From Heterodontus francisci (taxonomy: Eukaryota): a stretch of DNA of 64,000 nucleotides. Shown here piece after piece: positions 11,466 to 63,675 of the stretch. The stretch covers positions 186,001 through 250,000 of the forward strand of contig NW_027141721.1 of the NCBI RefSeq assembly GCF_036365525.1, written 5' to 3'. Position 1 is the first letter of the stretch, and each line of letters starts with the position of its first letter. Under the pieces are notes generated by a model, which was not told where the DNA came from, ran no database searches, and saw nothing but the letters and a program-made list of their open reading frames with translations. Position numbers and translations under genes: made by a program.

Positions 11466-11814
11466 TAAAACATCAGCCGCGGCTCCTTCGCCTGTCCTGT
11501 CTGTACCAGAACATGGAACCGTTACCCTCACCCTCCACACGACACTCCAGTCCTACTCCCTCCCTAGGAAGTCTGGAGATGGCGGTGGAAGCTGACGGAC
11601 CCTCGCTGAGATCGTGCCTGGGGGAAGAGACAGGGAGAGAAGAAGATCAGTGAACAGGGACAATCTGGAATGTGAGGAATGAAGGAAGGAGAGAAAGATA
11701 GAGAGAAAGACAATAAGAAAGAGAGCTGTTAGCACAAACAATGGGGGTGTGGGGTGGTGGTGAGAAAGATCCCTTACTTTGAAATAAGACCATGAGACTC
11801 AGTAACAGATACAT
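11462..11814 (-). pseudogene. TRBV pseudogene (paralog of the 60396-60888 V), frameshifted and 3'-truncated by CR1
   Basis: Leader 11814-11778 is identical to that of the 60.9 kb gene. The V exon from 11617 has a 1-nt deletion after RVRQ and another frameshift after WYRQD, and ends at 'MFYS' where a CR1 3' fragment begins. No second Cys and no RSS. Confidence 0.9.
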
Positions 11815-60356: not shown

Positions 60357-60395
60357 TGTTTTTGTTGAACTGCTCCATCTCTCTGAGTCACTGTG
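60357..60395 (-). promoter_or_regulatory. 23-bp-spacer recombination signal sequence (23-RSS)
   Basis: Minus strand: CACAGTG + actcagagagatggagcagttca (23 nt) + ACAAAAACA, immediately 3' of the V exon. Confidence 0.95.
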
Positions 60396-60888
60396 CAGAC
60401 TCCAGGCACAGAAATACAGCGCCGAGCGATTCTCCTGCAGGCTGGAGGACTCCAGGTTGAACTGGGAACCAGTCGGTCGTTTGGCAGTGAAACCCTCCAC
60501 CGTCCCCTCTGAGTTCACACTTGGTGTAACTGCGGAGTAAAACATCAGCCGCAGCTCCTTCCCCAGGTCCTGTCTGTACCAGAACATGTAACCGCTACTC
60601 TCGCCCTCCACACGGCACTCCAGTCCCACTCCCTCCCCAGGAAATCTGGAGACGGCGGTGGGAGTCTGGCGGACCCTCGCTGAGATCGCGCCTGAAGGAA
60701 GAGACCGGGAGAGAAGAAGGTCAGTGAACAGGGACAATCTGGGATGTGAAGAATGAAGGAAGGAGAGAAAGATAGAGAGAAAGAAAATAAGAAAGAGAGC
60801 TGTTAACACAAACAATGGGGGTGTGGGGTGGAGGTGAGAAAGATCCCTTACTTTGAAATAAGACCATGAGACTCAGTAACAGATACAT
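60396..60888 (-). CDS. TRBV: T-cell receptor beta-type V gene segment (TRBV30-like), apparently functional: leader exon 60888-60852, V exon 60691-60396
   Basis: Leader ATG...MYLLLSLMVLFQ+A|gtaag; phase-1 intron ending tcttccttcag. The V exon reads (S)AISARVRQTPTAVSRFPGEGVGLECRVEGESSGYMFWYRQDLGKELRLMFYS...FTAKRPTGSQFNLESSSLQENRSALYFCAWS, with both Ig Cys, WYRQ and the CAWS end typical of TRBV30-like genes. An RSS follows directly. Confidence 0.9.
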
Positions 60889-62698
60889 CTTCCACTGGAA
60901 GCTTATCCTGCAATTGGGAAATCAGTGGAAAGAAGAGATTTGAGTCTTGTGAGAAGCCACATGAAGACTCAAGCAAGTGATTCAGGTTTGTCCAACACCT
61001 TCCTCCCTGATGAGGTACCCACGCCCCTCTCTCTACCATTGGCTGCCAGTAGTTGCTGTTGCATTTGTTGGTATAGATCTGCTGCTGAAGTTGTTGTTGT
61101 ATTTGTTGTTGTATTTGCTGGTGCTTTTCTCCGACTGAGGTTGTTGAATTTGTTAGTGTTTGAATCTTCTGCTGATCTGTTGTTGAATTTGTTGGTGTTT
61201 GAATCTCCTGCTGATCTGTTCTTGAATTTGTTGGCGTTGTTTTCCTTTTGAGGTCGTTGTTGTGTTTGTTGGTGTTTTCCCTGCTGACGTTTTTGTTGTA
61301 CTTGTTTCCTTCCCTGCTTCAGTTGTTGTTCAATTTGGTTTTTGCATGTTGTTGTATTTTTTGGAGTTTTTTCCCCCCTGCTGAGGTTATTTTCTCTTTT
61401 TTAATTCATTCATGAGATTTTGGTTGTGGCCAGCATTTATTGTCCATCCCTAATCGTCTAATTGAGAAGGTGGTGCTGAGCTGCCTTCTTGAACCGCTGC
61501 AGTCATGTGGGGTAGGTTGACCCACAGTGCTGTTAGGAAGAGAGTTTCAGGATTTTGACCCAGTGACAGTGAAGAATTTTCACAATGACTGGACTTCAGT
61601 GCGGTGAAGAACTTAACGCTATAACTCCCGTTTAGCAGAAGGGGGTGAAATAAAACTGTCTTGGCCCCGAAACAAGGCAGCAGGTTGACGGGTCGCATTG
61701 GGTCATAGAATCATGCAGGTCAAATCCAGGCCGTTCAGCCCATCGATCCTGGCCTGGCAGCTCGAAAGAGCGACTTCCTCCCATCTTTCTTCGTCTTACC
61801 CTATCAACAGATTCTTCTATTCCTTTCTCACTCATGTATTTATTCAGCTCCCCCTTAACTGCATCGTCTCTATTCGACCTCAACCCATTCCATTTGGTCT
61901 GTAATTCCACATTATCACCGCTCCCTGGGTTAAAGAACCTCCTCCTGAATTCCCAATTGGATTTATTAAGGACTACCTTACATTTATGATCCCTTATTTT
62001 CATCTTCCCTGTCCAATTGCTCCCACTCCCTGTTCTTTCTGAATAACCCTGCTCTTGATCTTGCAGCTTGTCTGCCTCCTTCCCGACATGACAACAGTGA
62101 CTGCACGTCAAAATGTATTTGACTGGTTAAGGCTTGAGTGAAGCAGAGAACTGTCGGGCCGAATGGCGCGGATCTTTGCATTAACTTCCATCTAGTTCTG
62201 TGCCACAAGCGCCAACACGAGTCGAGTAGGAGAATATAACTAATGACTGAAACAGGTTCAGTATCTGACAATGAAACGCCTGCAGAATCAGTGCTTGCAG
62301 TTGCACCTGGAGCCACTAGGTGCCAGTGTTACTCCACTGTAGCCGCTGCCCAGAACATGCTCAGACAGAGTGAGCTTTACCCACAGCAGCTCCACAGGTC
62401 AACTTGGCTGCTTCTGAAATGTTTCACTTCTCAACTATTTCACAGACACACAAAAAAAAAAACGCAGTTGGACTTCATCATGTTTGGTCTTTAATAGTGA
62501 CCAGAGCACCCCGGATTCGCCTGAGGCCTCCTTAGCTCAGCCCATGAAATGACCTGTCAACATGTCAACATGTGGGAGCCAATGAACCATCAGGAATTTG
62601 CACCCCCTCCCTCCCCCCAATGGGAACATGAAACAGTGGGGAGGAGGAGACAGTAAATGTCACTCAGAACATTGAGATTTTCTGCAATAAACCAGCTC

Positions 62699-62708
62699 AG
62701 TGATTTCA
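62699..62708 (+). promoter_or_regulatory. Candidate V-beta promoter decamer (CRE-like)
   Basis: AGTGATTTCA lies ~35 nt upstream of the leader ATG, one mismatch from the mammalian Vbeta decamer AGTGAYRTCA. A CCAAT is present at ~62579. Confidence 0.4.
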
Positions 62709-62742
62709 CACAATGAACACATGGATCTGTCTCCCTCCAGAG

Positions 62743-63636
62743 ATGACTGTGTCTCACCTCTGCGTTGTGTTGCTGGTGTTAAGGGGTAAGGTGGACCTCG
62801 ACTGGGAGATGTCAGTCATCTTCACTGCTCTTTCCCTGTGTGACCCCATTGGGAGTTTACCCCCTTACAAGGCACCGTCACTGTGATTGTTAATTTAGCT
62901 GCTCTCTTTCTCTTTTTGTATCCCTTTCTCTATCTCTCTTTCTCTCTGTCTAACAATAAATGTTCCTCTATGTCTGTCCCTCCCAGTCTCCCTGTCTCTC
63001 TGTCTCTCTTACTCTCTCTCCCTGTCCTCTTAGCTCCTTCATGTCTGTTGCCGATGTCTAGAATGTTGCTGTTTTTCTCTCTCTGTCTGTGCTTCCCTCT
63101 CTCTCTCTCTCTCTGTCTCTGCTTCTCTCCTTTTCTCTCACTCTTTTTCACTCTATGTCTCTCTCTCTCTTTGCAGCTCCCCGTCTCCCACCTCTCCCTT
63201 CTTACGAAGAAACACGGGACATTTAGGGCACACAGCAGGTCATTCAGCCCATCGTGCCTCTCCCCTCTTCGTGGCCGATGTCAATTTAAACATTGTCCCT
63301 GGGTTTATCTCTCTCTCTCTCTCTCTCTGTTTTACAGATGTGGGGGCCGTGTTGATGCAACAGATTCCCGCTTCCATATCCTATTCCCCAGGCTCTCCAG
63401 TCAGTATCCAGTGTATTTACACAAAGGCAGATGCTGGCTCCGATATCCACTGGTACCCGTGGCATCCGGACCGTGAGCCCGAGAACCTTTTCTATTCCAC
63501 CTCTGCTGGAACAGTCATTCCCTCCAGAGAGGTTGGCGGTTTCACCGCCAGGAGACCCAGCAACACCCATTTTTCCCTGGAGTCCACCAGCCTGTGGGTG
63601 AATCAATCAGCCGTGTATTACTGTGCCTGGAGTCTG
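62743..63636 (+). CDS. TRBV: T-cell receptor beta-type V gene segment, second family: leader exon 62743-62785, V exon 63338-63636
   Basis: Leader MTVSHLCVVLLVLR+G|gtaag; acceptor tttacag. V exon DVGAVLMQQIPASISYSPGSPVSIQCIYTK...IHWYPWHPDREPENLFYS...FTARRPSNTHFSLESTSLWVNQSAVYYCAWS is open, with conserved Cys/Trp/Cys. Confidence 0.88.
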
Positions 63637-63675
63637 CACAGTGACTCAGAAAGGTGCCAGATTTCAGCAAAAACT
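63637..63675 (+). promoter_or_regulatory. 23-RSS
   Basis: CACAGTG + actcagaaaggtgccagatttca (23 nt) + GCAAAAACT. Confidence 0.92.

What the first reader, a model, noticed from the sequence alone, without database searches (positions are those of the whole stretch)
60382..60411. Perfect AP-1 site fused to the V 23-RSS heptamer, conserved across two divergent V families
Seen: the two functional V genes differ strongly in protein sequence, yet share 30 identical nt across the coding end and RSS (CTGTGCCTGGAGTCTG-CACAGTG-ACTCAGA). This creates TGACTCA at heptamer positions 6-7 plus spacer 1-5 (60384-60390 and 63642-63648). Known: in mouse Tcrb an AP-1-like site at this position of the 3' D-beta 23-RSS binds c-Fos, promotes RAG loading and D-J-before-V-DJ ordering, and V-beta RSSs generally lack it. 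Inference: these V segments have 'D-like' RSSs, which could mean different rearrangement order, direct V-J joining or AP-1-boosted usage. Gene conversion is an alternative cause of the identity.
Basis: partly seen in the sequence, partly recalled or inferred. Interest (0 to 1): 0.7.

Follow-up and report, generated by a model that had tools for sequence, protein, structure and literature searches.

The report
Inherited AP-1 word in shark TCR-beta
Two intact shark T-cell-receptor beta V gene segments share an AP-1-like word in their DNA-cutting signal, but the word marks one heavily duplicated gene clan, changes as often as the rest of the spacer and is missing from this shark's D segments, so it is likely an inherited by-product of an ordinary signal rather than a Fos/Jun switch.

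Summary
The AP-1 reading is not supported. The word belongs to one expanded clan ending in CAWS: 317 of 355 such ends genome-wide, 0 of 80 sampled V genes of six other families. None of 24 D-beta 3' RSSs carries it, so these V signals are not 'D-like' here. Spacer positions 1-5 change no less often than the rest (13 of 51 events, 11.1 expected), and open-frame and broken genes keep it equally. Four of eight readable shark and ray relatives have lost it. The two 'divergent families' share a block of about 140 nt (FR3 to nonamer; 0.78 identity against 0.44 upstream), likely from an old segment exchange, so they are one origin, not two. In mice, a V-placed D-beta RSS boosts usage without its c-Fos site (PMC7478721). 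Binding and junctions were not tested. The scan reached the same reading before on other DNA (e1-9894028, e1-9514546). Side finding: 21 D-J-C units in this assembly.

The parts
60852..60888 (-). V1 leader exon (MYLLLSLMVLFQ, phase-1 GT donor)
60396..60691 (-). V1: TCR-beta V exon, CAW-A subfamily, open frame ending YFCAWSL
60357..60395 (-). V1 23-RSS (heptamer 60389-60395, spacer 60366-60388, nonamer 60357-60365)
60384..60390 (-). TGACTCA word at V1 heptamer 6-7 plus spacer 1-5
60357..60500 (-). FR3-to-nonamer block of V1 shared with V2; contains the identical 30-mer 60382-60411
   Evidence: left edge approximate, from the changepoint
62743..62785 (+). V2 leader exon (MTVSHLCVVLLVLR, phase-1 GT donor); V1 and V2 lie head to head
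63338..63636 (+). V2: TCR-beta V exon, CAW-B subfamily, open frame ending YYCAWSL; likely mosaic (5' two-thirds as distant from V1 as unrelated families)
63637..63675 (+). V2 23-RSS (heptamer 63637-63643, spacer 63644-63666, nonamer 63667-63675)
63642..63648 (+). TGACTCA word at V2 heptamer 6-7 plus spacer 1-5
63532..63675 (+). FR3-to-nonamer block of V2 shared with V1; contains the identical 30-mer 63621-63650
   Evidence: left edge approximate, from the changepoint

Best explanation
The TGACTCA word is part of the ordinary 23-spacer recombination signal of one heavily duplicated shark TCR-beta V clan, and it likely arose once as a near-consensus spacer head, spread by duplication, likely passed into the second subfamily by an old exchange of the FR3-RSS block, and likely serves as a RAG site rather than a Fos/Jun site. 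Shown: clan restriction, absence from D segments, no excess conservation, the identity step at FR3. Inferred: single origin, the exchange, the lack of an AP-1 role, and that these V genes join D-J in the usual way through the strong 5' 12-RSS of D.
For: Clan-bound: 317 of 355 CAWS-type ends with an intact heptamer carry ACTCA; in 1.05 Mb of fetched DNA 124 of 158 CAW-clan ends and 0 of 80 ends of six other families. CAW-A and CAW-B form one clade, support 100/98. D segments: 0 of 24 3' RSSs have the word; they begin ATAGA (21) or ATAAA (3). No excess conservation: 13 of 51 spacer changes in open-frame CAW genes fall in positions 1-5, 11.1 expected, p=0.80; in CAW-B the heptamer has 0 changes while positions 1-5 have 5. 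Open-frame genes 84 of 108, broken genes 40 of 50, Fisher p=0.84. Between the two subfamily consensuses positions 18-23 are as well kept as 1-5 (6 of 6, 5 of 5; middle 6 of 12). Exchange: identity steps from 0.44 to 0.78 at the start of FR3, 0 of 1000 permutations; fourfold sites 0.32 against 0.76; control pairs with the CACS family show no such step (p=0.14, 0.28). Cheap by chance: the heptamer gives TG; among 26 other RSS types A1 is 17 of 26 and A5 19 of 26, about 0.02 per family and about 0.4 for one of 27 families. RAG itself prefers consensus letters at spacer 1-5, most at 5, with C the consensus at 4 (PMC212687 section 12). Relatives: of eight shark or ray CAW ends whose protein read-through keeps heptamer and spacer frame, four cannot encode the word. 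Mouse V2 and V31 given the D-beta1 RSS are boosted about 5-fold even with the c-Fos site destroyed (PMC7478721 section 10).
Against: The test of selection has little power in CAW-A, where even the heptamer shows 1.1 changes per site; there C2 and A5 show 0 changes in 93 sequences. C at spacer 2 is not the RAG optimum (top four dinucleotides all have T2, measured on 12-RSSs; PMC9723617 section 17), yet it is kept. Bamboo-shark paralogues still fit the word (P0001, P0002, P0004), so it is old; the rest of the spacer reads through the same way, though. Tree topologies of the 5' and FR3 halves differ only weakly (support 81 and 46), and a CAAG/CAASD pair also has high FR3 fourfold identity (0.72, 8 columns), so the exchange rests on the identity step. 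The sampled copies are recent duplicates and possibly uncollapsed haplotypes, so counts are not independent. No binding, usage or junction data.
Confidence: 0.8

Rival explanations
1. Fos/Jun binds the word and helps load RAG on CAW-clan V segments, raising their use; in this shark the AP-1 aid would sit on V rather than on D.
For: The word is a perfect AP-1 consensus (recalled) at the same RSS position as the mouse TGATTCA (PMC2642999); it marks about two-thirds of sampled V genes (158 of 238 are CAW); C2 is unchanged in 93 CAW-A sequences and fits in bamboo shark; c-Fos raises D-beta1 RSS activity on plasmids (Wang 2008 as cited in PMC7478721).
Against: No excess conservation of positions 1-5 and no difference between open and broken genes; 13 of 79 fully intact CAW genes lack the word; four of eight readable relatives lost it; the site is dispensable on mouse V segments in vivo.
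Confidence: 0.12
2. These V signals are D-like and allow direct V-to-J joining or a changed order of rearrangement.
For: CAW RSSs are near consensus (heptamer exact, nonamer 0-2 off), unlike the poor mouse V-beta RSSs described in PMC7478721.
Against: This genome's D RSSs lack the word. Every unit seen has a D with near-consensus 12- and 23-RSSs, and most of the 30 J 12-RSSs found on C1675 are 4-6 letters from consensus, the pattern that blocks V-J joining in mouse (PMC2642999). Other V families have RSSs equally close to consensus without the word.
Confidence: 0.04
3. The shared 3' block comes from plain common descent with faster change in the 5' two-thirds of CAW-B, or from continuing gene conversion at V 3' ends, not from one old exchange. 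The AP-1 word is still a by-product.
For: CAW-B nests inside the CAW clade on a long branch (0.83); half-gene trees give weak support for conflict; raised FR3 fourfold identity also appears between CAAG and CAASD.
Against: 5' identity to CAW-A (0.46) is no higher than between unrelated families (0.45, 0.43) and fourfold sites there are near saturation; a catshark CAW-B-type protein already has the CAW FR3 (P0055).
Confidence: 0.25

Closest known systems
Mouse 3' D-beta1 23-RSS with putative AP-1 (c-Fos) site TGATTCA (Wang et al. 2008, not held, seen only as cited in PMC7478721 and PMC2642999)
   Same: Same position: heptamer 6-7 plus spacer 1-5 of a 23-RSS in a TCR-beta locus; one letter apart.
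   Different: Here it is on V, not D; this shark's D RSSs lack it (0 of 24); no binding shown; no sign of selection.
Mouse V2F and V31F knock-ins (PMC7478721, section 10)
   Same: The direct experiment of a D-type RSS on a V-beta segment, with and without the c-Fos site.
   Different: The boost did not need the site, which argues against a large AP-1 effect at V RSSs; mouse, not shark.
CAWS-ending TRBV genes of tetrapods (TRBV30 type; P0088 is named 'T cell receptor beta variable 30' in a lizard; link to the mammalian 3' inverted V recalled)
   Same: CAWS end and similar FR3; hit at E 8e-13.
   Different: Here a clan of over 300 copies on both strands; the lizard read-through cannot encode the AP-1 word. 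Orthology was not tested by a tree.
Generic RSS spacer preference of RAG (PMC212687; PMC9723617)
   Same: Heptamer-adjacent spacer letters are constrained by RAG; A1, C4 and A5 of the word match the letters common in other RSSs of this genome.
   Different: C2 departs from the preferred T2; those assays used 12-RSSs and mammalian RAG.

Membership tests
Functional TCR-beta V segment with 23-RSS | Leader, splice sites, open V exon with both cysteines and the core tryptophan | tested here: met
Functional TCR-beta V segment with 23-RSS | Heptamer, 23-nt spacer, nonamer | tested here: met
Functional TCR-beta V segment with 23-RSS | Same-strand D (12/23), J (12) and TCR-beta C downstream on the contig | tested here: met
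   V2 faces D-J-C at C1675:308-334 kb (+), V1 faces D-J-C at C1675:10-35 kb (-); C exon matches many TCR-beta chains at about E 1e-17, though five to six Ig chains rank above them
Functional TCR-beta V segment with 23-RSS | Rearranged and expressed | tested here: inconclusive
   no RNA holder listed; contigs showed no V-D-J junction
AP-1/c-Fos-assisted RSS (mouse 3' D-beta type) | AP-1-type word at heptamer 6-7 plus spacer 1-5 | tested here: met
AP-1/c-Fos-assisted RSS (mouse 3' D-beta type) | Word on the D 3' RSS and absent from V RSSs, giving D priority | tested here: not met
   0 of 24 D, 124 of 238 V
AP-1/c-Fos-assisted RSS (mouse 3' D-beta type) | Word conserved beyond the rest of the spacer | tested here: not met
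   13 of 51 changes against 11.1 expected; lost in four of eight readable relatives; power is low in CAW-A
AP-1/c-Fos-assisted RSS (mouse 3' D-beta type) | c-Fos binds and raises RAG loading or recombination | not testable with these tools
   needs EMSA, ChIP or a substrate assay
AP-1/c-Fos-assisted RSS (mouse 3' D-beta type) | Sets the order of rearrangement | not testable with these tools
   needs thymocyte intermediates or repertoire reads

The most novel reading that the evidence does not exclude
Sharks place the AP-1 aid on V instead of D: Fos/Jun loads RAG on the CAW clan, the largest V group of a 21-unit TCR-beta locus, and the FR3-RSS exchange handed that advantage to a second V family, helping both expand.
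Probability: 0.1. Interest if true: 0.65.

Novelty: new member of a known kind. Interest (0 to 1): 0.2.

Why it matters
If Fos/Jun acted at these V signals, it would be a natural case of a transcription factor biasing V choice through the RSS, and it would reverse the mouse layout. The evidence points the other way. What stays useful: this shark's D-beta 3' RSSs lack the AP-1 word, so the c-Fos ordering model of mouse is unlikely to be ancestral in its present form; one V family looks like a chimera that took FR3 and RSS from another; and the assembly shows a TCR-beta locus of many D-J-C units, where a review calls shark TCR loci translocons (PMC6795676).

Tried and rejected
RNA: no RNA holder was listed for V1. 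Three same-sample runs, RNA only by guess and kept as contigs, were laid on a J stretch and on V1-V2; contigs of at least 85% likeness cover both V exons, mostly in X1, but the listed joints and loose ends were all at repeats, so D-less V-J joining stays untested. A recalled mammal-type D motif found nothing; D segments were then found by an RSS scan. One more D pattern did not run, so the D count of 24 is a lower bound; a variant D at C1675:34816 was missed by the pattern and also lacks the word. The open-frame calls were faulty (they included intron) and were redone. 'HNVK' read-throughs in P0001 and P0002, and 'HSDL' and 'HSLT' in P0028 and P0026, were dropped as likely gene-model splices at the GT inside the heptamer; P0055 and P0057 stop too early; P0052, P0094, P0108 and P0133 were not named and were not counted. 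CAW genes with spacer deletions (among them 9 that lose the word) are in the counts but not in the change counts. Wang 2008 and a guessed id for an early horn-shark TCR-beta paper were not held. Eight paper searches listed no paper on AP-1 words in shark V RSSs or on this locus's genomic layout; subscription papers are mostly not searched. Supplements were not read; Figure S4B of PMC2642999 (D-beta RSSs across species) may bear on D conservation.

Full report
Observation. V1 (minus strand, exon 60396-60691) and V2 (plus strand, exon 63338-63636) lie head to head, each with a leader, splice sites, an open frame and a 23-RSS. They share 30 identical letters, and TGACTCA falls on heptamer 6-7 plus spacer 1-5 in both. 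The proteins agree in 38 of 98 columns.

Setting. The window is G000:C1675:186001-250000 in a 6.0-Gb genome. A V of this genome (L049) reads the same as the V in a protein named Heterodontus francisci (compared by eye), so the animal is likely a horn shark. On C1675 I found D segments with 12/23 RSSs, 30 J segments and two copies of a constant exon. That exon matches many TCR-beta chains, with some Ig chains ranked above them, and V1's best matches include TCR-beta V domains. The locus is TCR-beta. V2 faces a D-J-C unit about 58 kb downstream; V1 faces one about 210 kb the other way.

How common is the word? An exact RSS pattern with ACTCA has 303 matches, control 0. Of 355 CAWS-type V ends with an intact heptamer, 317 carry ACTCA. 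In 1.05 Mb of fetched DNA (all of C1675 plus tiles of C761, C2233 and C876, the tiles chosen where V genes were already known), 238 V ends were collected by similarity to nine seeds, independent of the spacer. TGACTCA is in 93 of 119 CAW-A ends (V1 type), 31 of 39 CAW-B ends (V2 type) and 0 of 80 ends of six other families, which begin TTTGA, CTTGA, GTTCA, ATTCA, CTGCA, ATACA or TAACT. CAW-A and CAW-B form one clade. The word is a clan trait.

Is it D-like? No. All 24 D segments found genome-wide have 3' RSSs beginning ATAGA (21) or ATAAA (3); none has TGA(C/G)TCA or the mouse word TGATTCA. A 25th variant D also lacks it. The D heads CACTGTGAT and CACGGTGAT are among the best in a mammalian 12-RSS screen (PMC9723617 section 17). 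Most J RSSs are poor. That is the strong-D, weak-J pattern that enforces D use in mouse (PMC2642999 passages). The exact mouse word does occur here, on the small CAASD V family (6 of 6).

Is the word under selection? Not detectably. Open-frame genes keep it in 84 of 108 cases, broken genes in 40 of 50 (p=0.84); 13 of 79 fully intact genes lack it. On trees built from the V exons alone, 13 of 51 spacer changes in open-frame CAW genes fall in positions 1-5, against 11.1 expected. In CAW-B the heptamer has no change while positions 1-5 have five, so the test can see constraint there. In CAW-A even the heptamer drifts, so power is low, and C2 and A5 show no change in 93 sequences, a small point for the AP-1 reading. 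Between the two subfamily consensuses both spacer ends are kept (1-5 and 18-23) and the middle differs in 6 of 12; the chance that six differences miss the first five places is 0.18.

Other species, from protein read-through only. Eight shark or ray CAW ends were readable in named proteins. Compatible with the word: P0001, P0004 and P0016 in bamboo sharks, plus P0002 in another frame. Incompatible: P0006 and P0013 in bamboo shark and both ends of P0008 in a stingray. Two further ends in a manta protein (P0007) split one compatible and one not, read by eye, and an unnamed protein (P0005) is compatible; these three are outside the count. A lizard protein named TRBV30 is incompatible. Read-through cannot tell C from T at spacer 2 in the main frame, so 'compatible' is an upper bound. 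P0004 reads through the whole RSS as V1 does, so the full spacer, not just the word, changes slowly.

Why do two divergent families share it? The likeness is not confined to 30 letters. Across all open-frame genes, CAW-A and CAW-B agree at 0.46 of letters in the 5' two-thirds, no more than unrelated families (0.45, 0.43), but at 0.77 in FR3. A changepoint falls at the start of FR3 (0.44 to 0.78; 0 of 1000 permutations), fourfold sites rise from 0.32 to 0.76, and control pairs show no significant step. The simplest reading is an old exchange that gave CAW-B the FR3 and RSS of a CAW-A gene; a catshark protein of CAW-B type already has this FR3 (P0055). Half-gene trees support the conflict only weakly (81 and 46), so this step is inferred.

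Chance. The heptamer supplies TG. Among 26 other 23-RSS types of this genome (18 from other loci, picked from the first 100 of 687 listed matches, plus six TRB V families and two D types), A is at spacer 1 in 17 and at spacer 5 in 19; three types are one letter from ACTCA. A rough independent-position estimate gives 0.02 per family and 0.4 for at least one of 27 families. RAG selects consensus letters at spacer 1-5, most strongly at 5 (PMC212687 section 12).

What is known. Mouse 3' D-beta RSSs, not V-beta RSSs, bind c-Fos, which raises activity on plasmids (Wang 2008, seen only as cited). When the D-beta1 RSS was placed on V2 or V31 with the c-Fos site destroyed, V use still rose 4.9- and 5.4-fold (PMC7478721 section 10). 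Papers seen: PMC7478721 (passages, section 10), PMC212687 (passages, section 12), PMC9723617 (passages, section 17), PMC2642999, PMC2193808, PMC11754216 and PMC6795676 (passages only). That TGA(C/G)TCA is the AP-1 consensus is recalled.

Earlier notes of this scan on other DNA reached the same reading (e1-9894028, e1-9514546). They were opened after the clan, D-segment and conservation tests; the first prompted the cross-species check.

Verdict. A real feature with an ordinary cause: an inherited, near-consensus RSS head in an expanded TRBV clan, shared by two subfamilies through a common FR3-RSS block. An AP-1 role is not excluded, since binding and usage were not measured, but nothing tested here favours it. 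Interest 0.2.

Noticed in passing
G000:C407, C761, C779, C1317, C1675, C2233: 21 near-identical TCR-beta constant exons (98-100%) and at least 24 D segments on six unplaced contigs, six C exons on C407 alone, on alternating strands: a TCR-beta locus of many V-D-J-C units with several hundred V genes. Some copies may be uncollapsed haplotypes.
   Followed up: partly
window 63338-63675; CAW-B family: The V2 family looks chimeric: 5' two-thirds as distant from CAW-A as unrelated families, FR3 and RSS shared.
   Followed up: partly
window 60396-63636: The head-to-head V1/V2 pair, about 3 kb apart, recurs at eight or more places in the assembly and marks where V orientation switches on C1675.
   Followed up: no
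G000:C1675:298677 (+), 44030 and 48188 (-): The CAASD V family, nearest to D on this contig, carries TGATTCA, the exact mouse D-beta word, in 6 of 6 sampled copies.
   Followed up: partly
G000:C1675:333100-333140 (+), L099: A J-like relic (YSGVGTKLT) lies about 100 nt upstream of constant exon 1 in both units of C1675.
   Followed up: no
window 11470-11620 (-): A broken 5' fragment of a V1-type gene without FR3 or RSS.
   Followed up: partly
G000:C34:5466336-5466563, L232: Four tandem 23-RSS copies about 60 nt apart behind one alpha/delta-type V gene; similar doublets and triplets recur on C34.
   Followed up: no
G000:C1675:444592 (-) and copies: Nine sampled CAW-A genes have a 5-nt deletion at the spacer head that removes the word and leaves an 18-nt spacer; two still have open frames.
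   Followed up: no
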